DNA from: a virus
Reading direction: 5' to 3' (one strand)
Virus record (IMG/VR): IMGVR_UViG_3300044959_000025
Location: 1 to 40,530 of that record
Length of the DNA stretch: 40,530 nucleotides
Within the stretch, counting starts at the first letter, position 1, and each line of letters begins with the position of its first letter. Under the pieces are notes generated by a model that saw nothing but the letters and a program-made list of their open reading frames with translations, did no database searches and had not been told where the DNA came from. Both the position numbers and the translations under genes were made by a program. This document shows, piece by piece, positions 1 through 39,959 of this stretch.

Positions 1-20
1 TTTTTTTTTGTCCATCGCGT

Positions 21-49
21 TTGACACTAAACGCGCACCATGCTATGTT
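21..49 (+). promoter_or_regulatory. Sigma70-like early promoter P1 (TTGACA-N17-TATGTT); second copy at 40424-40452 within the overlap
   Basis: TTGACA at 21-26, 17-nt spacer, TATGTT at 44-49. It lies just downstream of the terminator at 40385-40412 and upstream of the 188..1081 gene. Confidence 0.6.
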
Positions 50-62
50 CACCATGCGTTGT

Positions 63-92
63 TTGACAAGTGAATCGGACCGAACGTATTGG
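63..92 (+). promoter_or_regulatory. Possible second tandem promoter P2 (TTGACA-N18-TATTGG)
   Basis: Perfect -35 at 63-68, but a weak -10 (tattgg at 87-92) that lacks the final T. Confidence 0.3.
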
Positions 93-187
93 GCCGCGCG
101 CGCGGTCCGATGCGACACTCGCGCATGGGCGCATCATGTGTCGTATGTCATCCGTGCGCGGCCTACTCACAGAAAGGAACAAGACCT

Positions 188-1081
188 ATGGCGACCATCT
201 CCAATGATCCCGTCACGCTTGCCGTGAAGGCGTATGAGGCGAGCGAGGGATTTTCTCAGAAGGCGGAAGCGGCATTTGCCGCGTTCGTCTATCACTGTGA
301 CGCTATCCTGTCGGACCCGGAACGCGGCGCTTTCGCGCCAAGCGCGGAATGGGTCCCATGGGAACAGGGGAAGCGCCGCCGTGATTTGGCCAATGCGCTG
401 CGGGGCATCCTGTTCGGCGATGATCCTTTGCCGAGCAAGAGGAAGGTCGGCGCGACCGCCTACAACAAGGCGCGCGCCGAGCGCACCCGGCAACAGCGCG
501 CCTGCGATCAGGCCGTTGCGGCAATCGCGGGTATCCGGCGCGGGCAGTCTGCCACCAGCCGCGCGCCGGAGTGGCGCAATGGCGAGTTGTTGCTTCCGCT
601 GGACTACTTTGTGCCAGCGGATATTCTCGCCAGCGTCAATCTTGTGATGCTGTTCGGCAACAAGATAACGAAGCCGCCGAAGCCGGGTGAGTCCTACATG
701 CTGCCAATGACGTCCACCACTAGCGAACACACTGTTCGCTATGTGACGTCAGACAAGGAAGGAAACCCGGTCGAAGCGTTCACCCGAATCAGGGTGACGC
801 GCGCCAGCATTGCCAAGATTGGCGCACCGCCCAAGGCGGAACGCGAGAATGAGGAAGGCGACCGAAACGAGACTGATCCTGTCGCGCGCGTTCCGCTTCC
901 TCAGGCTACGGCAGCGCTTCATTCCGCGCTTGCTGCGGCAGATTATGTCGTGGCAGGTGATGCGGCAGACGCGTTCCTTGACTTGCTCCGCGCTTGGCGA
1001 GATGCCAGCCCGGCGAACCGCAAGGCGCTTCTGGATATCGCTACGGAACCTGCGGCGAGCATCGCGCAAAGCGCCGCATGA
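188..1081 (+). CDS. Hypothetical immediate-early protein (297 aa), visibly GC-rich
   Basis: The ORF is open from 89. The ATG at 188 has gaaaggaa about 8 nt upstream. It sits downstream of P1/P2 and is followed by a palindrome hairpin and an intrinsic terminator. No motif recognised. Confidence 0.75.
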   Translation: MATISNDPVTLAVKAYEASEGFSQKAEAAFAAFVYHCDAILSDPERGAFAPSAEWVPWEQGKRRRDLANALRGILFGDDPLPSKRKVGATAYNKARAERTRQQRACDQAVAAIAGIRRGQSATSRAPEWRNGELLLPLDYFVPADILASVNLVMLFGNKITKPPKPGESYMLPMTSTTSEHTVRYVTSDKEGNPVEAFTRIRVTRASIAKIGAPPKAERENEEGDRNETDPVARVPLPQATAALHSALAAADYVVAGDAADAFLDLLRAWRDASPANRKALLDIATEPAASIAQSAA

Positions 1082-1086
1082 CGTCA

Positions 1087-1112
1087 GGCCTAGGCCAGCA
1101 ATGGCCTAGGCC
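1087..1112 (+). other. Hairpin made of two self-complementary GGCCTAGGCC decamers separated by agcaat
   Basis: ggcctaggcc at 1087-1096 and 1103-1112, giving a 10-bp stem and 6-nt loop just after the stop at 1081. Confidence 0.7.
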
Positions 1113-1122
1113 ACCCCTACGA

Positions 1123-1157
1123 GCCCCACACGGAGCCCCCGTGTGGGGCTTTTTTTT
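1123..1157 (+). terminator. Rho-independent terminator
   Basis: Stem gccccacacgg (1123-1133) pairs with ccgtgtggggc (1139-1149); 5-nt loop; T8 run at 1150-1157. Confidence 0.85.
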
Positions 1158-1278
1158 GTCCTATCCCTAGGCATCTTTGCCTAACCCCCCTGACTGCGTG
1201 CCTATCCCCACACCCCTCCCCAGCGCAAATAATGCGTGACGCCCGGGCGCGGATGGCCTAGCATGTCCTGCCAGACAT

Positions 1279-1309
<31 letters not shown>

Positions 1310-1368
1310 TGCACACAAGTTGTGGGTGCCACGTGGTGTCGTGACGCAACTAATGTGGGGTGTCGGGC

Positions 1369-1397
1369 TTGACAGTAATGCATTTGTGTGGTATATA
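1369..1397 (+). promoter_or_regulatory. Strong sigma70-like promoter P3 (TTGACA-N17-TATATA)
   Basis: TTGACA at 1369-1374, 17-nt spacer, TATATA at 1392-1397, about 100 nt upstream of the 1495 gene. Confidence 0.7.
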
Positions 1398-1420
1398 TAC
1401 AGACAAGTCGTGAGGTGAGT

Positions 1421-1437
1421 GCACAACATGTGCACAT
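1421..1437. promoter_or_regulatory. Palindrome/hairpin copy 1: GTGCACA-ACA-TGTGCAC (putative operator or 5' leader hairpin)
   Basis: 7-bp arms and a 3-nt centre, about 24 nt downstream of the P3 -10. It shares the 13-mer GCACAAC(A/T)TGTGC with three other sites. Confidence 0.6.
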
Positions 1438-1494
1438 TCTTTCACGATAACCTGTAGCAATGGTGCTGCAGGTTGTTAGAAGGAGGCACAACTA

Positions 1495-1818
1495 GTGAAT
1501 GACGAAAAGAGTGTTCGCGCTGACGTTTCGTCGAGCGCAAAGGCGTTCCTCAGCAACGTCAAGCAGGTGGCCATCAAGGCATTTGATGGCCGCATCAGCG
1601 TGGTCCTCGTCACTGAGGACCGGCCTGTGTATGCCTGTGCGTTCGATCCCGAAGACATTCAGCGCGTGGTCAATTACGCGCAGCGCAGCGTCAATGCACT
1701 GAATGTGCTGCGCAACGCGAAGAACGACATGGTGGCAGCCATCCAGGCCGTCCGTGTGCTCACGGATTGTGACATCAAGACTGCGAAGGACATTGTGGAA
1801 ACGCTGCTGAATCAGTAG
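1495..1818 (+). CDS. Early protein with a ribosomal L7/L12 C-terminal-domain-like segment (107 aa)
   Basis: GTG start 8 nt after AGGAGG (1481-1486). The C-terminal MVAAIQAVRVLTDCDIKTAKDIVE aligns with E. coli L7/L12 [24 protein letters not shown] (about 13 of 24 identical by eye). Confidence 0.75.
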   Translation: MNDEKSVRADVSSSAKAFLSNVKQVAIKAFDGRISVVLVTEDRPVYACAFDPEDIQRVVNYAQRSVNALNVLRNAKNDMVAAIQAVRVLTDCDIKTAKDIVETLLNQ

Positions 1819-1826
1819 CGTTTCAT

Positions 1827-1891
1827 GGGAGTGAGCACAACTTGTGCTCGCTCCCTCTCGAAGAACCGCTGCATGGTGCGGCGGTTCTTTG
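1827..1891 (+). promoter_or_regulatory. Composite intergenic element, copy A: 13-bp-stem hairpin with ACT loop, then the conserved GAACCGCTGCATGGTGCGGCGG hairpin
   Basis: Hairpin 1 at 1827-1855 (one G-T pair). Hairpin 2 at 1859-1891. It starts about 9 nt after the stop at 1818 and runs into the SD of the 1909 gene. Confidence 0.7.
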
Positions 1892-1908
1892 TGGGGGAGA
1901 CACAACAA

Positions 1909-2082
1909 ATGTGCAAGAGCGGAGACAAACTAAAGGCCAGCCCTTGTGAGGCTGCGTTGTCAGTTGTTGCGGCACAACTTGACAACGTCATCTCTGCGCT
2001 AGAAGCGGAGCAGCACGAGCACGCGTGGGAACTGCTGCACGAGTTGCGATACATGGTGCGCAATGTGCAGATGGGAGGCTGA
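1909..2082 (+). CDS. Hypothetical small protein (57 aa)
   Basis: ATG at 1909 follows gggggaga-cacaacaa. The upstream part of the ORF (from 1825) is occupied by the hairpin element. Confidence 0.6.
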   Translation: MCKSGDKLKASPCEAALSVVAAQLDNVISALEAEQHEHAWELLHELRYMVRNVQMGG

Positions 2083-2084
2083 AC

Positions 2085-2312
2085 ATGACGTTTGATGAAG
2101 CGTGCCGCGCCGTCGTGCGCGCAGCCAAGGGTGCGAAGCCTGGGCATGGGCTGCAATATGCAGCAGCCTACGCGCAGGCTGGCATAGGCATGACAGGTGA
2201 GGAGCGTCGTGTACAGGCGCTCTATATCCTAGCCAACCTCACCACCTGGCGTGGTGAGGAAGCACAACAAGTAAAGGCTGTGCTGCGTGACGCCAGCAAG
2301 AAGGTGGGCTAA
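2085..2312 (+). CDS. Hypothetical small protein (75 aa)
   Basis: ATG at 2085 lies 6 nt after GGGAGG and starts 3 nt after the previous stop. Confidence 0.7.
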   Translation: MTFDEACRAVVRAAKGAKPGHGLQYAAAYAQAGIGMTGEERRVQALYILANLTTWRGEEAQQVKAVLRDASKKVG

Positions 2313-2476
2313 TGCGCAACTGGCGTGCTTGGCTGCAAGCCTTCATTGACTTGGTTGCTATGACCATCCTACTGTGTGTGCTGGTCGTGGCCATCACGTT
2401 GTTGTTTGGCACAGAGAAGCAGGCCAATGACTTAGGCTTGTTGTTTCTGTCCGTGCGGCGTAGCCTAGGACTGTAA
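2312..2476 (+). CDS. Small predicted membrane protein (54 aa; below the ORF-track cutoff)
   Basis: TAATG stop/start overlap with the previous gene. Hydrophobic stretch MTILLCVLVVAITLLF. Translated by hand. Confidence 0.5.
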   Translation: MRNWRAWLQAFIDLVAMTILLCVLVVAITLLFGTEKQANDLGLLFLSVRRSLGL

Positions 2477-2496
2477 ACAAGCATGAGGAGGATGCA

Positions 2497-2682
2497 ATGA
2501 TCAGCACTGAAAACAGGAAGGGCCTCGGCACCCTGACCTATGACCATATCCTCAAGACGCACGGAGCGGCAGCGGCAGAAGAATGGCGGCGCAAGCGCAG
2601 AAAGGCGCTCGCCAAGAAGCGTGCGCAGCACGAGAAAAACGTTGCTGCGCGTGCATTCCATAATCGCAGCAAGACGCGGTAG
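2497..2682 (+). CDS. Small highly basic protein (61 aa), possibly nucleic-acid binding
   Basis: GAGGAGG lies 6 nt upstream of the ATG. Arg/Lys-rich C-terminal half (RRKRRKALAKKRAQHEK). Confidence 0.7.
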   Translation: MISTENRKGLGTLTYDHILKTHGAAAAEEWRRKRRKALAKKRAQHEKNVAARAFHNRSKTR

Positions 2683-2689
2683 AACGTGT

Positions 2690-2752
2690 GGGTGGCTGCA
2701 CAACTTGTGCAGCCACTCCTTCCCGATGAACCGCTGCATGGTGCGGCGGCTC
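2690..2752 (+). promoter_or_regulatory. Composite intergenic element, copy B (paralog of 1827-1891)
   Basis: Hairpin at 2690-2718 (ACT loop). An identical 22-mer gaaccgctgcatggtgcggcgg at 2728-2749 matches 1863-1884. It starts 8 nt after the stop at 2682. Confidence 0.7.
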
Positions 2753-2772
2753 CTTGTGAAGGAGGACCTACA

Positions 2773-2844
2773 ATGCCAAAAGTTATCTACTCCGCAAACA
2801 GGCAGGCAGGCAGACAGGCAGCACTGCCCAATGCAGCGTCTTGA
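2773..2844 (+). CDS. Mini-ORF (23 aa, MPKVIYSANRQAGRQAALPNAAS) containing the CAGG repeat
   Basis: AGGAGG lies 7 nt upstream of the ATG. Translated by hand. Coding status is uncertain. Confidence 0.35.
   Translation: MPKVIYSANRQAGRQAALPNAAS
2799..2821 (+). repeat. Imperfect (CAGG)n tetranucleotide repeat (CAGG x3, CAGA, CAGG, CAG)
   Basis: Counted directly. It lies inside the mini-ORF 2773..2844. Confidence 0.9.
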
Positions 2845-2877
2845 GCACACTGGCCTTGAAGGTGATGGAGAAGAGTA

Positions 2878-3099
2878 ATGAACAAGACATTCATCCGCTA
2901 CTTCATTTATGCATCTGACGACCCGGACGACAAGGAGTTGGACATTGACCCCATGGTTGTGTGTGCATCACCAGCCGATGCTGATGCACACGTTGATGAG
3001 TTGTTGTGGGAGTATGACTATGTGTGGGTGGACGAAGTGACTTGTGTTGCTGCAGTCCGCTTGCTTGAACGTGAAAGAGGTGAGGACTACAAACACTAA
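2878..3099 (+). CDS. Small acidic early protein (73 aa)
   Basis: ggagaag upstream of the ATG. About 19 Asp/Glu of 73 residues by my count. Confidence 0.7.
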   Translation: MNKTFIRYFIYASDDPDDKELDIDPMVVCASPADADAHVDELLWEYDYVWVDEVTCVAAVRLLERERGEDYKH

Positions 3100-3103
3100 C
3101 AGG

Positions 3104-3132
3104 TTGACAGTGACAGCAGACTGCTGTATAAT
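3104..3132 (+). promoter_or_regulatory. Consensus sigma70 promoter P4 (TTGACA-N17-TATAAT)
   Basis: TTGACA at 3104-3109, 17-nt spacer, TATAAT at 3127-3132, 30 nt upstream of the 3163 gene. Confidence 0.8.
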
Positions 3133-3162
3133 GCATATTGCGCTCTAGGAAAGGAGGCAGAC

Positions 3163-3606
3163 ATGAAGCGCATTCACATTGGTTCTGTGTCCTCCGGCAC
3201 GACACGGTTGGAGGACATTGGTCCTGCCGTCCTCGATGTAGCACTTGATGTGCTGCCGAGTGACGAAAGGTTCGATGAACTGCTTCGTGATGCTCACGAG
3301 GCAGACGAGCGCGAGTGGTCGGGCGAATACGACAGTGAAGTGCTGGATGAACTCATTGACGCGATCAATGAGTTCTGCCCGCCATACGTGTATTTCGGCG
3401 CGCACTCTGGCGACCCTGCAGACTTCGGCTTCTGGCCAGACTTCGATGCCATCGAACAAGATGTGCGCGATGGCGTGATCCTCAAGACAGATGGGGACGT
3501 GCCAGAAGACTGGCGTGGTTATGTGTTGCAGGTGAATGACCACGGCAACACAACCATGTGCTTTGCAACACGGAAGGGAGTGGAGGTGCTATGGGACTGC
3601 GTGTGA
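3163..3606 (+). CDS. Strongly acidic early protein (147 aa); candidate DNA mimic or anti-restriction protein
   Basis: AAAGGAGG RBS. About 34 Asp/Glu against about 12 Lys/Arg by my count. First gene after the consensus promoter. Confidence 0.8.
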   Translation: MKRIHIGSVSSGTTRLEDIGPAVLDVALDVLPSDERFDELLRDAHEADEREWSGEYDSEVLDELIDAINEFCPPYVYFGAHSGDPADFGFWPDFDAIEQDVRDGVILKTDGDVPEDWRGYVLQVNDHGNTTMCFATRKGVEVLWDCV

Positions 3607-3824
3607 CTGACATAGGTCACCTGCAGAACTGCCACATTGATTGGGATGCCATGAGCGACGAGCAGTGTCGCAAATGGGAATACATCCATAACTGCATGAA
3701 TGCTGCAGGCTTCAAGATCGCTGCCAAGCACATGGCAGAGATTGTGCACATGGTGAGCAGCCCAAAGGCGCTGCGTGCATTGGAACGTGCATGGCAGCGA
3801 TATGCAGGCAGAAAGGAGCCATAA
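3591..3824 (+). CDS. Hypothetical protein (77 aa)
   Basis: The ATG at 3591 is preceded by ggagg and overlaps the upstream gene end by 16 nt. The ORF is open from 3558. Confidence 0.6.
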   Translation: MGLRVTDIGHLQNCHIDWDAMSDEQCRKWEYIHNCMNAAGFKIAAKHMAEIVHMVSSPKALRALERAWQRYAGRKEP

Positions 3825-3825
3825 C

Positions 3826-4032
3826 ATGTTCCAGAGGCGACATTTCAAGGTGTTGTCTGAATGGGTATGCAGCCGTGCCGACGTGTCAGAAGCGGCATGC
3901 CTGTCATTGGCAATCATGCTCAAGATGCACAGTCGGCACTTCAAGGCAGTGCGCTTCTTCCAAGCATGTGGCTACAGCAGAGACGACGCAAACAGGCTCG
4001 CAGAGCGCGTGGACAAGGAGTGCGGGATATGA
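3826..4032 (+). CDS. Hypothetical protein (68 aa)
   Basis: The ATG at 3826 lies 7 nt after aaaggag. The ORF is open from 3775. Confidence 0.6.
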   Translation: MFQRRHFKVLSEWVCSRADVSEAACLSLAIMLKMHSRHFKAVRFFQACGYSRDDANRLAERVDKECGI

Positions 4033-4385
4033 AGTTGAATCCGGACTTCAAGGCCAAGTGGGTAGCTGCATTGCGCAGTGGTCAGTATGTGCAGGCACGC
4101 AACCAACTCATTGCAGACTACGAGATGCCGGACGGCAGACAGGCATTGTGCTGCCTCGGCGTTGGGTGTGTTGCCAGTGGCATACCTGCAGTCAACTTGC
4201 ATGGCTTCAAGTTGCCTACTCTACTTCATGTGCATGGTTGGTGGCAGGAACATGGTGATGGTGACGGCTCACCATGTGACCCTGCCGTGATGGTGAACGG
4301 CAAATACTACACACTGTCAGATTTGAACGATCGGCTCAGACTGACGTTTGAAGAGATTGCCGACATCATCGAGCAACAACTGTGA
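4029..4385 (+). CDS. Hypothetical Cys-containing protein, tandem paralog A (118 aa; MKLNPDFKAKWVAALRSG...)
   Basis: ATGA overlap with the upstream stop. AAGGAG lies 8 nt upstream. It shares KWVAALRSG, CCLGVGCV and LSD(L/V)ND(R/K)LRL..E(E/Q)IADIIEQQL with the next gene. Confidence 0.75.
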   Translation: MKLNPDFKAKWVAALRSGQYVQARNQLIADYEMPDGRQALCCLGVGCVASGIPAVNLHGFKLPTLLHVHGWWQEHGDGDGSPCDPAVMVNGKYYTLSDLNDRLRLTFEEIADIIEQQL

Positions 4386-4399
4386 AAGGAGAATGTGCT

Positions 4400-4756
4400 A
4401 TGAAGTTGAAGCCAGAGTTCAAGACTAAGTGGGTTGCTGCACTGCGCAGCGGCAACTACAAGCAGGCATACCATTCCCTTGTTGACTGGGATCCATCTGA
4501 ACAGGGCCCACGTGCCTTCTGCTGCCTTGGTGTTGGATGTGTTGTGAGTGGCGTGGACCCAAAGGACCTTATCAACCTCAACTTGCCTACGAGGTCACAT
4601 GTAGATGACTGGTGGGACGGTGACGGTGGCCCCTATGTTTCACCGTATGACCCTTGGGTGCGTGTGTATGGTCTTGACTATAAGTTGTCCGATGTGAACG
4701 ACAAACTCAGGCTGAACTTCGAGCAGATCGCAGACATCATCGAGCAACAACTTTGA
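4400..4756 (+). CDS. Tandem paralog B (118 aa; MKLKPEFKTKWVAALRSG...)
   Basis: aaaggag upstream. Same length as paralog A, same conserved blocks, and an identical C-terminal IADIIEQQL. Confidence 0.75.
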   Translation: MKLKPEFKTKWVAALRSGNYKQAYHSLVDWDPSEQGPRAFCCLGVGCVVSGVDPKDLINLNLPTRSHVDDWWDGDGGPYVSPYDPWVRVYGLDYKLSDVNDKLRLNFEQIADIIEQQL

Positions 4757-4757
4757 C

Positions 4758-4988
4758 ATGCACACATTCCCAATGCAGCCGAGGCGGTCACTCACAGTGC
4801 ATCGCCTCGCTGACTGCTGGATTGTCTGGTTGTCAGGGTCACACTTGACTGTAAACCAGACATACGCTATACTCTACGACAGTGGTCACGTAGAGTATGT
4901 GAAGCAGACAAGTGACCACTACGACGTGGTGCGTATTGCACCACAAGAGCAACAGAAGGAGCAGAAAGGTGAGCAACACAATGAATGA
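4758..4988 (+). CDS. Hypothetical protein (76 aa)
   Basis: The ORF fills the gap between flanking genes, but there is no clear RBS. Confidence 0.45.
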   Translation: MHTFPMQPRRSLTVHRLADCWIVWLSGSHLTVNQTYAILYDSGHVEYVKQTSDHYDVVRIAPQEQQKEQKGEQHNE

Positions 4989-5274
4989 CGTCGAGATGGA
5001 GCGTGCGCTCCGCACTGCCACTGCGTGGGCTAAGGACACCGTGGCAAAGACATGGCTCGAGTTTGAGCCCGATGCCTACAACCCGCAGCCAGAAATCCGC
5101 TACACCAACCGTAGTGTGTGGGAACTCACACTCTACAAGGATGGGCGAGCGTTTGTGTCCTGCGGTCCCATGCTGTCACAAGCAGTGGCAGACATGGTGC
5201 TGCAGATCAACAACCACTTCAACAACAAGAAGGAGGCAGTGCTGCTGCTTCAGGCCTCCACTGAGGAGGGCTAA
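4981..5274 (+). CDS. Hypothetical protein (97 aa)
   Basis: The ATG at 4981 follows aaaggtgag and overlaps the previous stop (ATGAATGA). Confidence 0.65.
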   Translation: MNDVEMERALRTATAWAKDTVAKTWLEFEPDAYNPQPEIRYTNRSVWELTLYKDGRAFVSCGPMLSQAVADMVLQINNHFNNKKEAVLLLQASTEEG

Positions 5275-5688
5275 ATGGCCACGTTCACAGACAAACTGAT
5301 CACGGCCTTCCGCAACCTTGGCGTCAAGAATGGCACCAAGTATCCTGCGGCGGTCAACAGTCCTGACGTGCAGGCTGCCATCGAGTATGCAATGGCATCT
5401 GCATTGTCGAAGGCTGCGGAAGAACGCAAGCAGATAGCACGCCAAGCCGTGATGCCGCTCGTCGAGCGGTATCAAGACAACCTCGGCACACACGTTGTCG
5501 TGGACTCGCCATTTGTCACGCTCACTGCACAAGTTGTGCGTGGTGCGCGACGCTTGGACGAGAGGCTGCTGCTTGACAACATCATGAAGCAGTGCAACCT
5601 CGACAAGCGTGCAGCACAATCTCTGATTGACCAGAGTAAGGTCACTGGAGACAACCAGTTGCGGCTGACTGCCACATTGGCAGAGTAG
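5275..5688 (+). CDS. Hypothetical protein (137 aa)
   Basis: GAGGAGG upstream. The ATG immediately follows the previous stop. Confidence 0.75.
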   Translation: MATFTDKLITAFRNLGVKNGTKYPAAVNSPDVQAAIEYAMASALSKAAEERKQIARQAVMPLVERYQDNLGTHVVVDSPFVTLTAQVVRGARRLDERLLLDNIMKQCNLDKRAAQSLIDQSKVTGDNQLRLTATLAE

Positions 5689-5817
5689 CCCACTGCGTCT
5701 AGGAGTGGGGAGCGTTCCTCCTTTCCGCTGAGTCCCCTGCTGGCAGCGCGCTGCGCTGCGTGCCGCAAGGACTAACCCCACTGAGCGGCACACCTGTTTC
5801 AACCATTGGAGCATCGT

Positions 5818-6033
5818 ATGAGCAATGTCATATCACTCACACCCAAGACTGTGCGTGGCCGCACGCGCAACTGTGCGTGGTCGTATAGTTACGACCGCAA
5901 CACACGCACGTGGACATGGCGCGTCGAGGTGGCTATCGAACCACAAGTGTTCTCTGGCACTGCTAACTCTGAGCAGGAAGCCAAGCAGGTGATCCACTCT
6001 ATCATATACAGTGGAAAGGTGCCATCTCGATGA
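5818..6033 (+). CDS. Hypothetical protein (71 aa)
   Basis: ggag lies 7 nt upstream of the ATG at 5818 (an alternative ATG is at 5806). It follows a 129-nt intergenic gap. Confidence 0.6.
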   Translation: MSNVISLTPKTVRGRTRNCAWSYSYDRNTRTWTWRVEVAIEPQVFSGTANSEQEAKQVIHSIIYSGKVPSR

Positions 6034-6042
6034 GACGACAAC

Positions 6043-6375
6043 ATGAAGGACACACCATTTGACAGGCAACTGTTTGTCACCATGACACCGCAAGAACAGT
6101 TGGCGTGGCTGAACCAGTTGCGCGAACGCAGGCTGGCAACCGTCAGGATGTATCAGCAGAAGATGGCACAGATAGCCGCTGACAAGCGTGCTAAACTGAC
6201 TGCCAAACTTGAACGTGCGTTCGTTGCGATGGAGAAGGCATACGCCAAGTTTGAGGAAGCATCAACCAAACTGGATGTGCGCATCACTACGATGCACGCA
6301 TTGCTTGCCATGACAGAGGACGCAGATGAAGAACAGCGAGATACGGGAACTGCTGAGGGGGAAGATTATTCCTGA
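6043..6375 (+). CDS. Hypothetical coiled-coil-like protein (110 aa)
   Basis: Helix-rich, Lys/Glu/Ala-rich sequence. Weak RBS. Confidence 0.6.
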   Translation: MKDTPFDRQLFVTMTPQEQLAWLNQLRERRLATVRMYQQKMAQIAADKRAKLTAKLERAFVAMEKAYAKFEEASTKLDVRITTMHALLAMTEDADEEQRDTGTAEGEDYS

Positions 6376-6589
6376 ACTCGGCAAGGTGCTCATTGCCATC
6401 AACGAACGGTTGGCTGCCCAACACCAACAGATTATGGAGTTGGCACGCATGCTCGACACGTTGGCCACTGCACTGCAAGTGCAGGCACAGACTGTGCACA
6501 AGATGCAGAGCATGATGCCTACTGCGCAGGCAGCCAAGAACTTGGCCGTCAAAGTGGGCAGCGAGGAACACGAAGATGTCCCGCGTTGA
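6326..6589 (+). CDS. Hypothetical protein (87 aa)
   Basis: gagga lies 5 nt upstream. It overlaps the previous gene by 50 nt and the next by 14 nt. Confidence 0.55.
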   Translation: MKNSEIRELLRGKIIPELGKVLIAINERLAAQHQQIMELARMLDTLATALQVQAQTVHKMQSMMPTAQAAKNLAVKVGSEEHEDVPR

Positions 6590-7694
6590 GGTGCGGTTGG
6601 CAACGGCTGAAGAGTATGAGCAGGGCAAGCGTGGTGAACTGCGCACGTTTGACTATACCAAGTTGAACGCGCTCACGACTTGTCCAGTGTGGGGGTTGAC
6701 ACGCTACACACACCACAAGACAACCAGCATTGCTTCTGACGATGCACCTGCACCGCTGCGGGCAGGCAAGGTGCTACATGAGTGTTTTGCTGCCATCCGT
6801 CTATGGACGCTTGGCTATGCACAACACGAGTGGGAACTGTATGAGACAGAAGGTGTCAGGCTGTTCGGTGCTGACCGCTTCCAGGCACTCAAGGACGTGG
6901 CACAACAAGGCTTCAAACAGAGTGACCTCAACACTTCACTGCGCAACATCGCAATGGAGTGCCTAGCAACTGCTGACTATGTGGAGGACCCAGATGACAA
7001 ACGACGCACCTATTCTAATCTCGAAGGCAGCCTGCTCTATTACGTTCAACGATGGGACCACACTCGATATCCCGTCTGGGTCCCGAGTGCAGATAGTGCC
7101 AGTGGAACATTGGTGCATGGGCTGCAACGAGGAGGGCGTGTCTCCGGCATTGAGCGCCCATTTGCTCTACACATTAGTTGTGCCGATGGGGGCTTTGCGC
7201 CCTTCCTCTACGTCGGACGCATCGACGGCATCCACTATGACCCACGAACACAACAAGCAATCGTAATGGAGAACAAGTCAGCCACGCGGCTCAACGATGC
7301 ATGGCGCTTGTCATTCCACACGTCACCACAGGTCACTGGTTACACAGTGGCAGGCTCACTGCTGATTGAGCAGCCAGTGCAACGTGCATGCGTTATTGGC
7401 CTTGCACTACCACTGCCACGTGTGTTGTCGGATGGCCTTGCCATTGAGATGGTGGAGCGTCACACTGAGCAGGTGAACTTGTGGATGGATTGGGTGTTGC
7501 ACACAGTCGAATTACACGACAAGTGGCAAGACCAGCCTATGCAGGCACCTAGGCACTACCAGTCGTGCAACCGCTACTTCCGTCCATGTCCACTCGTGTT
7601 CTTGTGTGCATCGCCTGCCGATGAGCGTGAGGCTATGTGGGCCGACATGCGCACTGACGTGTGGAATCCTCTACACGGAGACGATGACGAATGA
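6576..7694 (+). CDS. PD-(D/E)XK exonuclease, Cas4/RecB-like, with Fe-S-type cysteines (372 aa)
   Basis: GRIDGIHYD ... IVMENKS (D...ExK). An N-terminal Cys (TTCPVWG) plus a C-terminal CNRYFRPCPLVFLC cluster typical of Cas4-family nucleases. Confidence 0.75.
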   Translation: MSRVEVRLATAEEYEQGKRGELRTFDYTKLNALTTCPVWGLTRYTHHKTTSIASDDAPAPLRAGKVLHECFAAIRLWTLGYAQHEWELYETEGVRLFGADRFQALKDVAQQGFKQSDLNTSLRNIAMECLATADYVEDPDDKRRTYSNLEGSLLYYVQRWDHTRYPVWVPSADSASGTLVHGLQRGGRVSGIERPFALHISCADGGFAPFLYVGRIDGIHYDPRTQQAIVMENKSATRLNDAWRLSFHTSPQVTGYTVAGSLLIEQPVQRACVIGLALPLPRVLSDGLAIEMVERHTEQVNLWMDWVLHTVELHDKWQDQPMQAPRHYQSCNRYFRPCPLVFLCASPADEREAMWADMRTDVWNPLHGDDDE

Positions 7695-8566
7695 CTATCA
7701 CCATAGGCTCATTCGACGTGCAGCCAGGCACAGTCAAACAACAATTGTTGACAATGTTGTTGTGGGGCAAGCCCGGTTGTGGCAAGACCGTGCTGGCAGG
7801 CACTGCACCAGCAAAGCGGTTGTGGTTGCAGTTTGACCCTGCAGGCACGGCGTCGCTCACTCCTAGTGACGACAACCTGATTGTGGACCTGTCAGGCATT
7901 GACCCTAAGCGGCTTGACACAATCAAGCAGGGCTCAACGTTTGAGGCTGACTTGGTGAAGTTGCTACGCACACGCGATGACATTCAAACTGTCATCGTTG
8001 ACAGCCTTACGTCACTAGGACAGACTGCCTTGACATATGCAATCCTTAGCGGTAAGGCTAACAAGGGTTCATTCAAGGCAACACTTGAGGACCCAGGGCA
8101 GACAGGGTTTGGTGTGCGTCTTGCAATCGTGCAGGACTTCGTGAAGTTGGTGCTGCGTGCATGTGCCGACTACAAGAAGCACTGCATCTTCATCTGCCAT
8201 GAGAAGGATGCACGTGCGGAGACTGTGAACGGTAAGAGCATGGTTGTGGAAATCACCATGAACCTTGGTGGTCAACTCAACAACAACGTTGGGTTGAGCA
8301 TCAGCGAACTGTGGTATGTAGAGGACACAGGCAAGCAGCGCCTGATCTATCTACGCAACCACGGTGTGAAGCGGCCCATGCGCACACGCATGTTCTTGGT
8401 CCCGCCTGACAAGCAGACACTTGTGTGGGAGTATGACCAGACAACCAACACTGGCGACACCATCGCAAAGTGGTATGCTGCATGGCAGGCCAACGGATTC
8501 AACAAGTTGCCGCTCGGCGCGAAGGTCATAGACCGACCCGTCGAGCCTATAGTCACCGAGGGCTAA
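7691..8566 (+). CDS. Sak4-like / AAA_24 RecA-fold ATPase (291 aa)
   Basis: Walker A GKPGCGKT, Walker B VIVDSLT. ATGA coupling to the exonuclease. Typical phage recombination-module position. Confidence 0.7.
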   Translation: MTITIGSFDVQPGTVKQQLLTMLLWGKPGCGKTVLAGTAPAKRLWLQFDPAGTASLTPSDDNLIVDLSGIDPKRLDTIKQGSTFEADLVKLLRTRDDIQTVIVDSLTSLGQTALTYAILSGKANKGSFKATLEDPGQTGFGVRLAIVQDFVKLVLRACADYKKHCIFICHEKDARAETVNGKSMVVEITMNLGGQLNNNVGLSISELWYVEDTGKQRLIYLRNHGVKRPMRTRMFLVPPDKQTLVWEYDQTTNTGDTIAKWYAAWQANGFNKLPLGAKVIDRPVEPIVTEG

Positions 8567-8580
8567 CACTCTCGGCGAAC

Positions 8581-8621
8581 AGTCCACACAACGAGTGACG
8601 GGTTGACGCTATGTGTGGACT
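8581..8621 (+). other. Intergenic hairpin (10-bp stem agtccacaca/tgtgtggact, 21-nt loop)
   Basis: Read directly. The loop contains ttgacgctatgtgtg, which resembles the loop of the 9098-9126 hairpin. Confidence 0.5.
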
Positions 8622-8659
8622 AACACCCGCTCAACCCAACCATAGTGAGGAGTGCAACT

Positions 8660-9079
8660 GTGAGCGAACTTCCTAGCGTGATGGAACTCGATTTTGACCT
8701 CAACGATGCGAAGCCGCCGGTGCCGCTGCCGGAGGGTGAGTATCGTGCAACGGTGCGCGCGATTGAGCGTGCCATCTCCAAGAACAGCGGCAAGGACATG
8801 GCCGTTATTGACTACTTCGTGTCGCCCGACCAGTTTCCGCCGGACTACACGGACGGCAACCCGGATGGTGAGGTGCTGCGCACCTACATCAGCCTGGACA
8901 TGTCGGTGCCGCGCAACCGTTACCGGTGGAAGCAACTGCACCAGATGCATGGGGTGCGTATCATTCCTGGTCGCCTCGACCTGACCGCCTTCATCGGTCG
9001 GGACGTGATCGTGCAGGTCACGCATGAGGACTACCAGGGCGAGATGCGCCCCCGTGTCAACCCGATCCGCGAGGCGTAA
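8660..9079 (+). CDS. DUF669-like protein (SSB-like partner found in Sak4 modules), 139 aa
   Basis: The GTG at 8660 lies 7 nt after GAGGAG (an ATG alternative is at 8681). The LDFDLNDAKPPVPLPEGEY...SKNSGKDM pattern is typical of DUF669. GC-rich codons. Confidence 0.55.
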   Translation: MSELPSVMELDFDLNDAKPPVPLPEGEYRATVRAIERAISKNSGKDMAVIDYFVSPDQFPPDYTDGNPDGEVLRTYISLDMSVPRNRYRWKQLHQMHGVRIIPGRLDLTAFIGRDVIVQVTHEDYQGEMRPRVNPIREA

Positions 9080-9097
9080 AAACCTCTTGCGGAGACT

Positions 9098-9126
9098 GCC
9101 ACGGCACGCTATATGTGTGCCGTGGT
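9098..9126 (+). other. Hairpin (9-10-bp stem ccacggcac/gtgccgtgg), weak terminator or regulatory site
   Basis: 19 nt after the stop at 9079. Only a short T stretch follows. It could overlap a weak promoter (TTGCGG-N17-TATATG, 9088-9116). Confidence 0.45.
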
Positions 9127-9158
9127 TCCTACCACAACAACCCTAGGAGACTGAAAGT

Positions 9159-9419
9159 ATGGCCAAGAACCCTACTGAGAAGCGTTCCGCTACCAAGCGC
9201 ACCACTCCGCCTGAGCGGACGCTCTACATTGTGTTTCAACCGGGGACCAGCCCGGACTTCATCAAGCAGGTGAAGGAGAGCATCCGGACTCTGACTGGCA
9301 ACGGGCGGGTTGTTATCGACGCATTCCGTCAAGGGGACCAGATGCCGGTCCTCCCGCTCACGGTGGACGTGGAGCGTCGCCCGCGCGTTGCTGGCGCGCC
9401 GGAACTCCCGGCTGCTTGA
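9159..9419 (+). CDS. Hypothetical small protein (86 aa), bracketed by hairpins
   Basis: aggaga lies 8 nt upstream. GC-rich. No motif recognised. Confidence 0.7.
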   Translation: MAKNPTEKRSATKRTTPPERTLYIVFQPGTSPDFIKQVKESIRTLTGNGRVVIDAFRQGDQMPVLPLTVDVERRPRVAGAPELPAA

Positions 9420-9483
9420 TGCAGGGTTGTGCTAGTGCCCGTAGGGTGCTCGCAGCGGCCTGAGTAGCGAAGGCAGCACAACA

Positions 9484-9510
9484 GGGCGGCAGGCTGATCA
9501 CCTGCCGCCC
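9484..9510. promoter_or_regulatory. Perfect 10-bp inverted repeat GGGCGGCAGG-N7-CCTGCCGCCC (hairpin or operator)
   Basis: 28 nt upstream of the RHH gene start. No T-run follows, so it is not a classical intrinsic terminator. Confidence 0.55.
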
Positions 9511-9537
9511 AACCTGCTACCACAAGGAGCACACACA

Positions 9538-9774
9538 ATGAGTAACAAACCAACCCGTGTTGAAGTGCGTGTGCCTACTACACCATCACTACGGGGCGTG
9601 GGCATTGAAGCGAAGCGGTATAAGTCCACCATCCGCCTGACGGAGGATGACTACAAGACACTGCTGGCTGCTGCTGAGAAGGCAGGCGTGCCGTTGGCCA
9701 CGTTCATGCGCACAGTGATTACTGATGCTGCTGCACAGTATGTGTCGGAGGATGCGAGCAATGGAGTTGAATGA
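9538..9774 (+). CDS. Ribbon-helix-helix (MobC/CopG-like) DNA-binding protein (78 aa)
   Basis: IRLTEDDYKTLLAAAEKAGVPLATFMRTVI matches the RHH beta-strand/helix/helix pattern. AAGGAG RBS. Confidence 0.7.
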   Translation: MSNKPTRVEVRVPTTPSLRGVGIEAKRYKSTIRLTEDDYKTLLAAAEKAGVPLATFMRTVITDAAAQYVSEDASNGVE

Positions 9775-11083: not shown

Positions 11084-11652
11084 AGTTCATCTTCCTTAAT
11101 GGTCCACCCCGCAGTGGCAAGGACACTGCTTGCAATGCTATTCTATCCATGCGGCATCCATCAATACGGGTGATGCGACGCATGTCTGAGCCACTCAAGG
11201 CTGGTGTTGCAGGCATCTTCGGCTGGACTGCTGAGCAGCAGCGCCAATTTGAGGAACGCAAGGACTCACTTGAGGTTGCTGACACCAACAAGACGTATCG
11301 TGAGTGGCAGATTGCCCTGTCTGAGGACTTCCTCAAGCCCAAGGCAGGACAAGACATCTTTGGTCGTCTATTCTTGCAATACTGCTTGCAGCATGGCTCA
11401 CCGCATCACGTGTGGGTGTGCCCAGATGCAGGCTTCAAGGCAGAGATCATGCCCATACTGCGTGTGTTCAAGCCACACAACTTGTTCCTCATACACATTG
11501 TGCGCCCAGGCACTGACTTCAGCAATGACAGCCGCAGTTACTTTGAGTTGGAAAACGTAGCCACCATGCAACTGCACAACTTTGGTGAACGCCACGAGTT
11601 GGAAGCAAACGCTGCACGGTTTGCACGTCTTTGGTTGGACTCGTTCGCATGA
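11080..11652 (+). CDS. Deoxynucleoside monophosphate kinase, T4 gp1-like (190 aa)
   Basis: MKFIFLNGPPRSGKDT resembles T4 gp1 MKLIFLSGVKRSGKDT. VCPDAG...IHIVRPG..SNDS resembles IVPDTR...IHVVRPG..SNDT. ATGA-coupled on both sides. Confidence 0.75.
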   Translation: MKFIFLNGPPRSGKDTACNAILSMRHPSIRVMRRMSEPLKAGVAGIFGWTAEQQRQFEERKDSLEVADTNKTYREWQIALSEDFLKPKAGQDIFGRLFLQYCLQHGSPHHVWVCPDAGFKAEIMPILRVFKPHNLFLIHIVRPGTDFSNDSRSYFELENVATMQLHNFGERHELEANAARFARLWLDSFA

Positions 11653-14072: not shown

Positions 14073-14074
14073 CT

Positions 14075-14308
14075 ATGGCTGGCACCATCAAACCCCGAAC
14101 AGTGTGGGCTGCTATATATCCAGGACAACGTAGGATTGACCAAGGGCGTCTCTATGATCTCCATGCAGCAGCATGGAACGATTGTGTGAACACGTTTGTG
14201 TGGCGCACTTACCAAGAAACGGGCACCTGGCCACTTAGGACTCGTGCTGCTGCACGTAAGGCAGGATACCGCGTGGCCAGGGTGCGTATGGAGGTTGTGG
14301 AGGATTGA
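14075..14308 (+). CDS. Hypothetical protein (77 aa)
   Basis: GGAGGT lies 6 nt upstream of the ATG at 14075, which starts 3 nt after the polymerase stop. Confidence 0.65.
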   Translation: MAGTIKPRTVWAAIYPGQRRIDQGRLYDLHAAAWNDCVNTFVWRTYQETGTWPLRTRAAARKAGYRVARVRMEVVED

Positions 14309-39854: not shown

Positions 39855-39869
39855 TGCACAACATGTGCA
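39855..39869. promoter_or_regulatory. Palindrome copy 4: TGCACA-ACA-TGTGCA
   Basis: Same GCACAACATGTGC core as at 1421-1437. It lies about 16 nt upstream of the -35 of P6. Confidence 0.55.
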
Positions 39870-39884: not shown

Positions 39885-39913
39885 TTGACGTTATGCGCGT
39901 GCCATGCTATGTG
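39885..39913 (+). promoter_or_regulatory. Promoter P6 (TTGACG-N17-TATGTG), paralog of P1
   Basis: 11 of 17 spacer positions are identical to P1 by my alignment, and P6 shares with P1 the 11-mer ccatgctatgt that spans the spacer end and the -10. About 45 nt upstream of the 39960 gene. Confidence 0.5.
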
Positions 39914-39959
39914 TTGCGTAGCCTGGCAATGATGCTAGGTGAGTGAAAGGGGAAAGGGA

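What the first reader, a model, noticed from the sequence alone, without database searches (positions are those of the whole stretch)
1421..2718. Four-copy palindrome/hairpin family with core GCACAAC(A/T)TGTGC at early promoters and gene boundaries
The same 13-mer core, with 6-13-bp arms and a 3-nt centre (ACA or ACT), occurs at 1421-1437, 1827-1855, 2690-2718 and 39855-39869. The first lies about 24 nt downstream of the P3 -10 and the last about 16 nt upstream of the P6 -35. A specific 13-mer is not expected even once by chance in 40 kb. Two readings are possible. The sites could be operators for a dimeric phage regulator; candidates are the RHH protein at 9538..9774 and the basic 61-aa protein at 2497..2682. 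Alternatively they could be RNA hairpins used for processing or stability. Stems with 3-nt loops also recall the hairpin promoters used by N4-type virion RNA polymerases, but I see no such polymerase here.
Basis: partly seen in the sequence, partly recalled or inferred. Interest (0 to 1): 0.65.

Follow-up and report, generated by a model that had tools for sequence, protein, structure and literature searches.

The report
Conserved dyad capping early-gene RNA hairpins
An uncultured 40-kb phage repeats a 13-base palindrome at its early-gene boundaries; its arms never change among relatives, and in three copies it caps longer RNA hairpins that pair with the next gene's ribosome-binding site, so it looks like a protein recognition site built into regulatory cassettes, not an N4-type promoter.

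Summary
The wider dyad GCACA-N3-TGTGC occurs 9 times (about 0.3-0.5 expected). Four IMG/VR relatives keep the four intergenic copies at the same places. The arms are invariant (0 of 40 columns vary; flanks 37 of 80), while loop positions 2 and 3 vary.

Two layers are present.
- **RNA layer (well supported).** The copies at 1421, 1835 and 2698 cap long + strand RNA hairpins. These belong to a thrice-repeated ~90-nt cassette: hairpin A, anti-SD tract, hairpin B, SD, start. All stem mismatches are G·U on the + strand, and stems covary.
- **Sequence layer (inferred).** The dyad itself is selected for sequence, not structure. The 39855 copy has no folding signal. Related clades carry other dyads in the same kinds of place, and one of those cannot fold well.

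My best reading is a DNA site for an unidentified dimeric protein. An RNA-binding reading remains a live rival.

Both proposed binders fare badly: the 61-aa basic protein is missing from 3 of 5 genomes, and the RHH does not co-vary with dyads in relatives. The N4-type promoter idea is rejected.

The parts
1419..1435 (+). Copy 1 (cassette M1). The dyad core is 1421-1433 (GCACA ACA TGTGC) in a 7-bp stem. A longer imperfect hairpin A spans 1407-1448. It lies about +15 in the leader of the sigma-70-type promoter at 1369-1397.
1827..1855 (+). Copy 2 (cassette M2). Hairpin A has a 13-bp stem and an ACT loop, and starts 8 nt after the stop codon of gene 1495-1818. Core 1835-1847.
2690..2718 (+). Copy 3 (cassette M3). 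Hairpin A has a 13-bp stem and an ACT loop, and starts 7 nt after the stop codon of gene 2497-2682. Core 2698-2710.
39855..39869 (.). Copy 4. A bare 15-bp dyad, TGCACAACATGTGCA, 16 nt upstream of the -35 box (39885-39890) of promoter P6. It has no extended stem and no folding signal.
5526..5540 (.). It is present in 3 of the 5 clade genomes; the left arm is mutated in the other two.
6485..6497 (.). Bare GCACA-N3-TGTGC core in a coding region (loop GAC), conserved in all five genomes. Three similar bare cores lie at 22572-22584, 30662-30674 and 32227-32239. Whether these four belong to the family is uncertain.
1449..1476 (+). Hairpin B of M1 (AACCUGUAGCA-AUGG-UGCUGCAGGUU). Its stem covaries in relatives.
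1859..1891 (+). Hairpin B of M2 (CGAAGAACCGCUGCA-UGG-UGCGGCGGUUCUUUG). It looks like a terminator, with an A-tract before the stem and a U-rich tail after it.
2724..2758 (+). Hairpin B of M3 with its flanking tracts.
39921..39940 (+). Hairpin-B-type stem-loop (GCCUGGCA-AUGA-UGCUAGGU) in the leader downstream of P6.
1437..1443 (+). Anti-SD tract UUCUUUC of M1, which pairs with the SD at 1479-1486. The equivalents are 1851-1857 with 1893-1899 in M2, and 2716-2722 with 2758-2765 in M3.
1369..1397 (+). Sigma-70-type promoter P3 (TTGACA, 17 nt, TATATA, preceded by TGg), read by eye from the sequence and conserved in all five genomes.
39885..39913 (+). Sigma-70-type promoter P6 (TTGACG, 17 nt, TATGTG), read by eye from the sequence and from its similarity to the promoter at 21-49.
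   Evidence: (family D8)

Best explanation
The finding has two layers.

Layer 1 (shown). Copies 1-3 are the tips of long stem-loops that form in the + strand early transcript made by the host RNA polymerase. Each belongs to a ~90-nt cassette present three times: once in the leader of promoter P3 and once in each of two intercistronic gaps. A cassette consists of hairpin A with a purine-rich, SD-like 5' arm; a pyrimidine tract that pairs with the downstream Shine-Dalgarno sequence; hairpin B; the SD; a CACAAC spacer; and the start codon. The cassettes also mark the places where gene content differs between relatives.

Layer 2 (inferred). The 13-15-nt dyact core TGCACA-A-NN-TGTGCA is conserved for its sequence, not for pairing. 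It is most likely the double-stranded DNA recognition site of a clade-specific dimeric protein that I could not identify. The four intergenic sites cluster within about 3.3 kb around the early promoters: 57 bp upstream of the P6 start, at +23 of P3, and at two gene boundaries in the P3 operon. A bound protein could therefore repress or block host polymerase at P3 and P6 and along the early operon. That the same bases also cap RNA hairpins would be because the ancestral leader cassette, operator included, was duplicated.
For: **The RNA layer.**
- In the alignment of the M2 and M3 hairpins, 100% of cells form standard pairs on the + strand. Four pairs change on both sides. There are 10 G·U cells and no A·C cell.
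- RNAalifold on 11 cassettes gives hairpin A, an anti-SD:SD helix and hairpin B, with 5 compensatory pairs.
- The + strand RNA folds at z = -4.1 to -7.1 and is 7-13 kcal/mol more stable than the - strand.
- The covariance model finds exactly three cassettes per genome, scoring 68-103 bits for the intact ones (26-41 for copies with a reduced or lost hairpin B) on the + strand and at most 37 bits on the - strand.

**Selection on the core sequence.**
- None of 40 arm columns varies across 4 sites in 5 genomes. In comparison, 37 of 80 flank columns and 7 of 32 lower-stem columns vary, and 4 of 8 columns at loop positions 2-3 vary.
- The 39855 copy has no folding signal (z = +0.29), yet it is invariant amid scrambled flanks.
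- Conserved arms with a variable centre is the pattern of a dimer-bound DNA site.

**Association with promoters.**
- The dyad sits 15-16 nt upstream of the P6 -35 box in 4 genomes. In L016 a deletion fused it 8 nt upstream of another promoter's -35 box.
- In L013 the leader copy has moved 25 nt further from P3, and an extra 12-of-13 copy sits 4 nt upstream of the P3 -35 box.

**Extra and analogous sites.**
- Bare cores also occur in coding DNA: 3 in the late region against 0.15 expected.
- Relatives found through the shared early gene 2085-2312 carry other over-represented dyads at the same kinds of place: CATTGCAATG, TTGAAAnTTTCAA, GTTTA-N5-TAAAC and CGATC-N5-GATCG. Their arms are conserved and their centres vary. 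By my reading, CATTGCAATG cannot form a stable hairpin (not folded here). Several lie 10-40 nt upstream of TTGACA boxes.
Against: - No binder is identified. The RHH is the only recognisable DNA-binding protein, and it does not co-vary with dyads in relatives.
- The 1835 and 2698 copies have no recognisable promoter nearby.
- Loop position 1 is A in 20 of 20 intergenic sites while position 3 is free. A symmetric homodimer on DNA would not be expected to impose that asymmetry. It suggests that the + strand is read, although if all three centre positions were free the chance of this pattern would still be about 0.09.
- In L013 the leader copy lies at about +48, too far for simple promoter occlusion.
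- The analogy with dyads in other clades is indirect.
- The bare coding-region cores turn over between genomes and may be partly due to base composition.
Confidence: 0.42

Rival explanations
1. The core is read as RNA. The tip of hairpin A (a 5-bp stem plus A-N-N, or a pentaloop AANNU closed by C-G) would be the binding site of a clade-specific RNA-binding protein. That protein would control read-through of the terminator-like hairpin B, or free the SD from the anti-SD tract. The known parallels are lambda N with boxB and phage Mu Com with the mom leader.
For: All four intergenic copies can lie in + strand transcripts; the 39855 copy would be reached from promoter 39279-39307. Loop position 1 is A in 20 of 20 sites while positions 2 and 3 vary, an asymmetry that fits a single strand. 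Hairpin A survives intact where hairpin B has been lost, in L016, L013 and L015. The distance from P3 is not conserved. Competition between the SD-like arm, the anti-SD tract and the SD is conserved in all cassettes.
Against: Proteins that recognise RNA hairpins usually read the loop and tolerate stem covariation. Here the stem is invariant and most of the loop is free. The 39855 copy has no structural signal. The arginine-rich 61-aa protein is absent from 3 of 5 genomes. No boxA-like element is conserved next to the copies. This reading does not explain the bare cores in late coding DNA, nor the CATTGCAATG dyad of relatives, which by my reading cannot form a stable hairpin.
Confidence: 0.27
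2. The elements are purely structural cis-elements with no specific binder. Hairpin A would act as a terminator or attenuator, or as a 3'-end protecting stem-loop, after each early cistron. Cleavage by RNase E or RNase III would occur in the cassette. The repeats would serve as homology patches for cassette shuffling, as PeSLs do in T4-like phages.
For: The hairpins start 7-9 nt after stop codons. Hairpin B has an A-tract, a GC-rich stem and a U-rich tail. In L016 and L013 the third hairpin A is followed by UUUUCC. Collinearity with relatives breaks at the cassette edges, at 1907-1934, 2666-2688 and 2736-2764. Gene presence and absence changes there. PeSLs are described as ~100-bp promoter/stem-loop/SD cassettes that flank ORFans and mediate indels (PMC2839356, PMC4122927).
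Against: Structure alone predicts covariation in the top of the stem, not 0 variable columns of 40. Gene conversion over 5-nt arms that spares the loop and the lower stem is implausible. The 39855 and 5527 copies are too short to be stable hairpins. Only two of the sites are associated with a promoter.
Confidence: 0.15
3. The sites are N4-type single-stranded DNA hairpin promoters used by a virion-packaged RNA polymerase.
For: The form is similar: short stems, 3-nt loops, and several copies near the start of the early region.
Against: No RNA polymerase is detected by Pfam or PHROGs. The only giant ORF (15516-19703, - strand) was modelled over residues 302-1395 at pLDDT 81 and pTM 0.80. It is all-helical and has no Foldseek match in the PDB at E < 1 and no profile match. 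N4 promoters need the hairpin on the template strand, with a purine at -11, G at -10 and G at -8 (PMC4496689). Here the wobble pairs favour the non-template strand, and the centre base on the template strand is G, C or A. Sigma-70-type promoters precede the early and late units.
Confidence: 0.02
4. The dyad is a DNA site for a process other than transcription. It could be the target of a nuclease or recombination protein that promotes cassette exchange, or a replication or packaging signal.
For: The dyads coincide with mosaic breakpoints. Every clade has its own dyad scattered over intergenic and coding DNA. These phages encode a PD-(D/E)XK nuclease and a Sak4-like annealase, and relatives carry HNH genes. 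The PeSL authors speculated that a protein might target their stem-loops (PMC2839356).
Against: No site-specific nuclease or recombinase is identified in the window. The sites cluster in the early control region rather than at the genome ends or at an origin-like region.
Confidence: 0.08

Closest known systems
PeSL cassettes (promoter-early stem-loop) of T4-type phages (PMC2839356, PMC4122927)
   Same: Both are repeated ~90-100-bp intergenic cassettes in the early, ORFan-rich part of the genome. Each contains a stable stem-loop with G·T pairs, an SD and the start of the next gene. In both, indels and gene replacements between close relatives are bounded by the cassettes.
   Different: Only the first cassette and the 39855 site are associated with a sigma-70-type promoter. 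Here the stem tip is an invariant clade-specific dyad rather than GGGG...CCCC. There is a second hairpin and an SD/anti-SD pairing. The host is a ~40-kb phage of an unrelated, uncultured group.
Palindromic operators of dimeric phage repressors (Cro/CI and Arc/Mnt/CopG types; from general knowledge)
   Same: Both are 13-15-bp dyads with conserved half-sites and a variable centre. There are several copies clustered around the early promoters. The sequence is specific to each phage lineage.
   Different: Two of the four intergenic copies are not at promoters. One centre position is conserved asymmetrically. No cognate repressor is identified, and the RHH candidate fails a co-variation test in relatives.
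Lambda-type nut boxB hairpins bound by N (from general knowledge)
   Same: Both are short RNA hairpins with a phage-specific sequence, one in the early leader and one after the first gene, upstream of terminator-like hairpins.
   Different: In boxB the loop is read and the stem may vary; here the pattern is the reverse. No boxA is found. The only arginine-rich candidate protein is dispensable, being absent from 3 of 5 genomes.
RNase III processing hairpins between the early genes of T7 (from general knowledge)
   Same: Both are intercistronic stem-loops just after stop codons in a host-transcribed early operon. The composite hairpin B reaches about 22 bp and buries the SD.
   Different: Hairpin A has only 13 bp and no internal loop. 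No cleavage data exist. Conservation of the sequence at the stem tip is not a feature of RNase III sites.
N4 virion-RNA-polymerase hairpin promoters (PMC4496689)
   Same: Stems of 5-7 bp or more with 3-nt loops near the start of the early region.
   Different: No virion polymerase is present. The hairpin is selected on the non-template strand. The bases conserved at -11, -10 and -8 in N4 are not present.

Membership tests
N4-type vRNAP hairpin promoter | The phage encodes a virion RNA polymerase | tested here: not met
   No RNA-polymerase hit in Pfam or PHROGs. The 1395-aa ORF gives an all-helical AF2 model (pLDDT 81) with no Foldseek match in the PDB at E < 1 and no profile match.
N4-type vRNAP hairpin promoter | The hairpin forms on the template strand, with a purine at the loop centre (-11), G at -10 and G at -8 (PMC4496689) | tested here: not met
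   There are 10 G·U cells and no A·C cell on the + (non-template) strand. On the template strand the loop centre is G, C or A across copies and genomes.
N4-type vRNAP hairpin promoter | Short stem (5-7 bp) with a 3-nt loop | tested here: met
   Stems of 5-13 bp with 3-nt loops. The likeness is in form only.
PeSL-type regulatory cassette | Repeated ~100-bp intergenic cassette with a stem-loop, an SD and a start codon, upstream of ORFans | tested here: met
   Three cassettes per genome are found by the covariance model. The downstream genes have no informative Pfam or PHROG hit.
PeSL-type regulatory cassette | Contains a strong sigma-70-type early promoter | tested here: inconclusive
   A promoter is present at M1 (1369-1397) and next to the 39855 copy (39885-39913). 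No consensus promoter is seen in M2 or M3.
PeSL-type regulatory cassette | Indels and replacements between close relatives are bounded by the cassettes | tested here: met
   blastn collinearity breaks at 1907-1934, 2666-2688 and 2736-2764. Genes 2497-2682, 2773-2844, 2878-3099, 1909-2082 and 39960-40364 are variably present. In L016 a deletion joins the dyad to another promoter.
PeSL-type regulatory cassette | The stem-loop acts as a terminator or attenuator | not testable with these tools
   Only terminator-like shape can be scored.
Dimeric-repressor operator | Dyad with conserved half-sites and a tolerant centre | tested here: met
   0 of 40 arm columns vary, while 4 of 8 columns at centre positions 2-3 vary.
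Dimeric-repressor operator | Symmetric conservation about the dyad axis | tested here: inconclusive
   Centre position 1 is always A, while its symmetric partner, position 3, is A, T or G. Only about 6 substitution events are available.
Dimeric-repressor operator | Sites overlap or flank the regulated promoters | tested here: inconclusive
   Two of the four intergenic sites are near promoters: about -57 of P6, and +23 of P3 (+48 in L013, which also has an extra copy at the -35 box). Two are not near any promoter.
Dimeric-repressor operator | A cognate DNA-binding protein is encoded and binds the site | not testable with these tools
   The RHH (9538-9774) is present in all 5 genomes. In relatives, RHH beta-strand type and dyad type are uncoupled. 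Binding itself was not tested.
Lambda N / nut (boxB) antitermination | An arginine-rich N-like protein is encoded alongside the hairpins | tested here: not met
   The 61-aa protein with the motif EEWRRKRRKALAKKRAQ is found only in the window and L015. It is absent from L014, L016 and L013, which keep all the hairpins.
Lambda N / nut (boxB) antitermination | A conserved boxA next to boxB | tested here: inconclusive
   No shared motif is seen 5' of the copies. The 3' pyrimidine tracts pair with the SD instead. The host's boxA is unknown.
Any curated RNA family (Rfam 15) | Score at or above the family's gathering threshold | tested here: not met
   No match over the whole window. The best sub-threshold match over 1350-2800 is RNAI, at 31.6 bits against a threshold of 47.

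The most novel reading that the evidence does not exclude
Across a widespread, uncultured group of ~40-45-kb phages, each clade may carry its own short dyad: GCACA-N3-TGTGC here, and CATTGCAATG, TTGAAAnTTTCAA, GTTTA-N5-TAAAC or CGATC-N5-GATCG elsewhere. These dyads are repeated at early promoters and early-gene boundaries. They would be read by a fast-evolving specificity protein that is not yet recognisable; it is neither the RHH nor the conserved early protein 2085-2312. The dyad-tipped cassettes would serve both as switches for early gene expression and as junctions for swapping ORFan genes.
Probability: 0.3. Interest if true: 0.7.

Novelty: new variant of a known kind. Interest (0 to 1): 0.5.

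Why it matters
If the reading is right, this phage group runs its whole programme on host RNA polymerase. It would control its early genes through a lineage-specific dyad built into RNA-folding cassettes that also gate translation of the next gene. That would give a compact case of one sequence serving at both the DNA and the RNA level. It would also extend PeSL-like cassette shuffling beyond T4-type phages. Finally, it would point to an unknown family of sequence-specific regulators that could be found by pairing each clade's dyad with its variable early proteins. If instead the core proves to be an RNA-protein site, it would be a new boxB-like system.

Tried and rejected
- **Phage database comparison.** DNA similarity to known phages gave no match. 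The DNA polymerase is at most 28% identical to that of any listed phage.
- **Rfam.** Nothing reached a gathering threshold.
- **Metagenome scan.** A scan with the M2-type pattern returned only five unrelated hairpins, so no further clade members were found.
- **Contigs for intermediate relatives (nuclease 50-72% identical).** They lacked the early region.
- **The 61-aa basic protein as binder.** Rejected, because it is absent from 3 of 5 genomes.
- **RHH as binder.** Weakened by two results. Dyad and RHH beta-strand do not co-vary in relatives. A different inverted repeat, CCACGGCAC-N9-GTGCCGTGG, sits at 9097-9123 in the gap upstream of the genes that lead to the RHH.
- **Protein 2085-2312 as binder.** Its homologues do not group by dyad type.
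- **Small ORFs starting at the loop AUG/UUG/GUG.** Neither the frame nor the stop codon is conserved (my reading of the alignments).
- **An internal promoter using the hairpin B loop (CATGGT or CATAGT) as a -10 box.** Dropped, because the same hairpin lies downstream of real promoters in M1 and in the P6 leader.
- **The core as a mimic of the phage's best ribosome-binding region (GGAG-CACAAC-AUG).** This fits M1 only, not M3 or the 39855 copy.
- **Structure of gp1 (188-1081).** The model was too poor to use (pLDDT 49).
- **Pfam and PHROG scans of about 20 early proteins.** Nothing informative.
- **Constrained folding.** The forced 'SD paired' constraint was not honoured for some cassettes, so only the MFE and the 'SD free' energies are used.
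Full report
**What the window is.** The window is a complete phage genome of about 40.4 kb. Its first and last 127 bases are identical. I take that to be the overlap left by a circular assembly rather than a measured terminal repeat.

Genes on the + strand run from 188 to 15547. They comprise about 20 small ORFans and a replication/recombination set:
- a PD-(D/E)XK nuclease (6576-7694);
- a Sak4-like ATPase (7691-8566);
- a DUF669/SSB-like protein (8645-9079);
- an RHH protein (9538-9774);
- a RecD/Dda-type helicase (9725-11083);
- a dNMP kinase (11080-11652);
- a family A DNA polymerase with an N-terminal UDG-like domain (11631-14072);
- a DUF3987 primase-like protein (14309-15547).

Genes on the - strand run from 39061 down to 15516. 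They include the large terminase, the portal, an amidase-like virion protein and a 1395-aa protein. Nothing similar at the DNA level is in the phage collection, and the polymerase is at most 28% identical to any listed phage. Sigma-70-type promoters precede the early units and the late operon. No tRNA and no Rfam family is present.

**The observation.** GCACAACWTGTGC occurs at 1421, 1835, 2698 and 39856 on the + strand. A fifth copy at 5527 reads with the centre AGT. That is 5 matches against 0.03 expected. GCACA-N3-TGTGC occurs 9 times, against 0.46 expected from shuffles or 0.33 from 5-mer frequencies. It is the outstanding 5-N3-5 palindrome of the genome.

**Relatives.** Four IMG/VR contigs share 94-99% identical polymerases and are collinear with the window. 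All four keep the dyad at the same four intergenic places. These places are the leader of promoter P3 (M1), the gap after gene 1495-1818 (M2), the gap before the gene 2773-3163 region (M3), and upstream of promoter P6.

Across these 20 sites the ten arm positions never vary and centre position 1 is always A. Centre positions 2 and 3 vary (C/G/T and A/T/G). By comparison, 46% of flank columns and 22% of lower-stem columns vary. The in-gene copy at 5527 is lost in two genomes. More distant relatives have no GCACA-N3-TGTGC at all; their nucleases are 45-72% identical.

**The RNA layer.** The M2 and M3 copies are the tips of 13-bp stems. Every cell of the alignment forms a standard pair on the + strand. 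Four pairs change on both sides between the two paralogues. All ten non-Watson-Crick cells are G·U and none is A·C, so the + strand is the one under selection.

M1 also has a long form (1407-1448), and it covaries in L013. RNAalifold on 11 cassettes gives a common design:
- the tip of hairpin A;
- a pyrimidine tract that pairs with the downstream Shine-Dalgarno sequence;
- an A-tract/U-tract extension;
- hairpin B.

This consensus has five compensatory pairs. By my count from the pair table, it has many more G·U cells (about 37) than A·C cells (about 6).

The + strand RNAs fold at z = -4.1 to -7.1 and are 7-13 kcal/mol more stable than their complements. A covariance model finds exactly three cassettes per clade genome, with far higher scores on the + strand, and none in distant relatives. 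The 5' arm of hairpin A is SD-like (GGGAG, GGGUGG, GUGAGG). Its 3' arm overlaps the anti-SD tract, so the bottom of hairpin A and the SD compete for the same pyrimidines. Hairpin A persists where hairpin B has been lost.

Hairpin B tops (..CA-[A]UGG/UGA/UAG-UG..) are also found on the + strand in distant relatives, with covarying stems. Hairpin B is therefore an older RNA element than hairpin A.

**The sequence layer.** Structure alone cannot explain an invariant stem tip with a free loop.
- The copy at 39855-39869 has no folding signal (z = +0.29). Yet its 15-mer is invariant while nearly every flanking column differs.
- It sits 15-16 nt upstream of the P6 -35 box in four genomes. In L016 a deletion has removed the P6 gene and left the dyad 8 nt upstream of the next promoter's -35 box.
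- In L013 an insertion moves the leader copy 25 nt further from P3, and an extra 12-of-13 copy lies 4 nt upstream of the P3 -35 box.
- Bare cores also occur in coding DNA: 3 in the late region against 0.15 expected.

Relatives retrieved through the shared early gene 2085-2312 show the same phenomenon with other sequences:
- CATTGCAATG: 11-12 copies in L021, 6 in L039/L040/L069/L070, 5 in L054;
- TTGAAAnTTTCAA: 7 copies in L049, flanked by conserved CCT..AGG blocks that are separated from the core by spacers that neither pair nor are conserved;
- GTTTA-N5-TAAAC: L046;
- CGATC-N5-GATCG: L058;
- CCTAGCTAGG: L042.

In all of these the arms are conserved and the centres vary. The sites lie upstream of TTGACA boxes, next to SD, start or stop codons, and sometimes in genes. 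By my reading (not folded here), CATTGCAATG cannot make a stable hairpin.

This pattern fits duplex DNA read by a dimeric protein better than an RNA hairpin read by a protein. I therefore prefer an operator-type reading for the core. The main caveats are that centre position 1 is conserved asymmetrically and that M2 and M3 have no promoter.

**Candidate binders.**
- The 61-aa arginine-rich protein (2497-2682) is present only in the window and one relative. Three genomes that keep every copy lack it.
- The RHH (9538-9774) is in all five genomes, and RHH genes occupy the same position in distant relatives. However, CATTGCAATG occurs with two different RHH beta-strands: LSCRLH in L021 and VAVRMH in L069/L070. 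Phages with the VAVRMH strand may also lack that dyad, as L022 and L066 do.
- Homologues of protein 2085-2312 are universal in the group, and the dyads often flank their genes. They do not group by dyad type.
- gp1 (188-1081) is clade-specific, but its model is unusable.

The binder is unknown.

**The N4 idea.** N4 promoters require a virion RNA polymerase and a template-strand hairpin with defined bases at -11, -10 and -8 (PMC4496689). No polymerase is detectable here. The 1395-aa protein belongs to a family of 1200-1450-aa proteins. It has no profile match to any solved structure. It folds confidently (pLDDT 81, pTM 0.80) into an all-helical structure with no Foldseek match in the PDB. The hairpins are selected on the non-template strand. 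I reject this reading.

**Mosaicism.** Collinearity between the window and its relatives breaks at the cassette edges. Genes 1909-2082, 2497-2682, 2773-2844, 2878-3099 and 39960-40364 come and go there. Gene 1495-1818, which is flanked by M1 and M2, is only 48-54% identical in three relatives, while the cassettes stay nearly identical. This is the behaviour described for PeSL cassettes of T4-type phages (PMC2839356, PMC4122927). I take PeSLs to be the closest known kind, with the differences listed under Closest known systems.

**Verdict.** The thing is a composite: a clade-specific, sequence-selected dyad that in three copies caps RNA hairpins of a repeated early-operon cassette. The RNA cassette is well supported; I put my confidence in it at about 0.85. 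The nature of the dyad's reader is inferred: duplex-DNA operator about 0.4, RNA hairpin site about 0.27, no reader about 0.15, other DNA transaction about 0.08, N4-type about 0.02. It is a new variant of known kinds of phage regulatory element. The interest is moderate, and it is raised by the finding that related clades each have their own dyad.

Noticed in passing
window 39062-39620: The divergent control region has very C/A-rich, G-poor untranslated tracts on both transcribed strands. On the - strand, a sigma-70-like promoter (TTGACA 39291-39286, 17 nt, TATGTA; read by eye) leads through (CA)n and (CAACA)n repeats (39090-39205) to the first late gene. On the + strand, promoter 39279-39307 leads into about 170 nt of (CAA)n and CACAAC repeats (39361-39530) with no ORF. 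These tracts look like Rho-loading (rut) sites or Hfq (ARN)n-binding RNA.
   Followed up: partly
window 39056-39068 (- strand), 1479-1497, 1893-1911: The best ribosome-binding regions of this phage read GGAG(N)CACAAC(N0-3)AUG/GUG. The first late gene has GGAGCACAACAUG, a 12-of-13 match to the dyad. In every variant seen, loop position 3 plus UG of hairpin A gives AUG, UUG or GUG. The 5' half of hairpin A therefore mimics a translation start region.
   Followed up: partly
L021, L039/L040/L069/L070, L054, L049, L046, L058, L042 (early regions): Each related clade has its own over-represented dyad: CATTGCAATG, TTGAAAnTTTCAA, GTTTA-N5-TAAAC, CGATC-N5-GATCG or CCTAGCTAGG. They lie at early promoters and gene boundaries. 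CATTGCAATG is shared by phages with 46% and 58% G+C.
   Followed up: partly
window 15516-19703 (- strand): A 1395-aa protein sits at the end of the late operon. It has a Pro/Thr-rich N-terminal linker and a confidently predicted all-helical body (residues 302-1395). It has 119 relatives of similar length and no sequence or fold match to any solved structure. It may be an internal or ejection protein.
   Followed up: partly
window 1276-1310 and 2799-2822: (CAGG)n tetranucleotide repeats lie upstream of promoter P3 and again after the third cassette, inside a 23-codon ORF. The copy number differs between relatives.
   Followed up: no
window 1-127 and 40404-40530: The 127-bp ends are identical. 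That length is typical of an assembler's k-mer overlap on a circular assembly, so the true genome ends are unknown.
   Followed up: no
window 4015-4385 and 4386-4756: A tandem duplication of a 118-aa gene (71-77% DNA identity). Relatives carry one or two copies.
   Followed up: no
window 9097-9123: The inverted repeat CCACGGCAC-N9-GTGCCGTGG lies in the gap after gene 8645-9079 and overlaps a TATATG -10-like box. It is either another intercistronic hairpin or the operator of the operon that contains the RHH.
   Followed up: no
window 1495-1818: The first gene of the P3 operon has a weak match to the C-terminal domain of ribosomal protein L7/L12 (Pfam E = 0.0013, below the cut-off). It is only 48-54% identical in three of the four relatives, although the flanking cassettes are nearly identical.
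   Followed up: no
L022 12198-15139 and L024 16088-18554: In distant relatives the family A DNA polymerase is split into two ORFs. In L022, small ORFs lie between the two parts. HNH genes lie nearby in L024. L021 encodes a protein with an Acb2/Tad1-type domain (19641-19910). L024 6843-7084 contains a sequence that looks like a tRNA.
   Followed up: no
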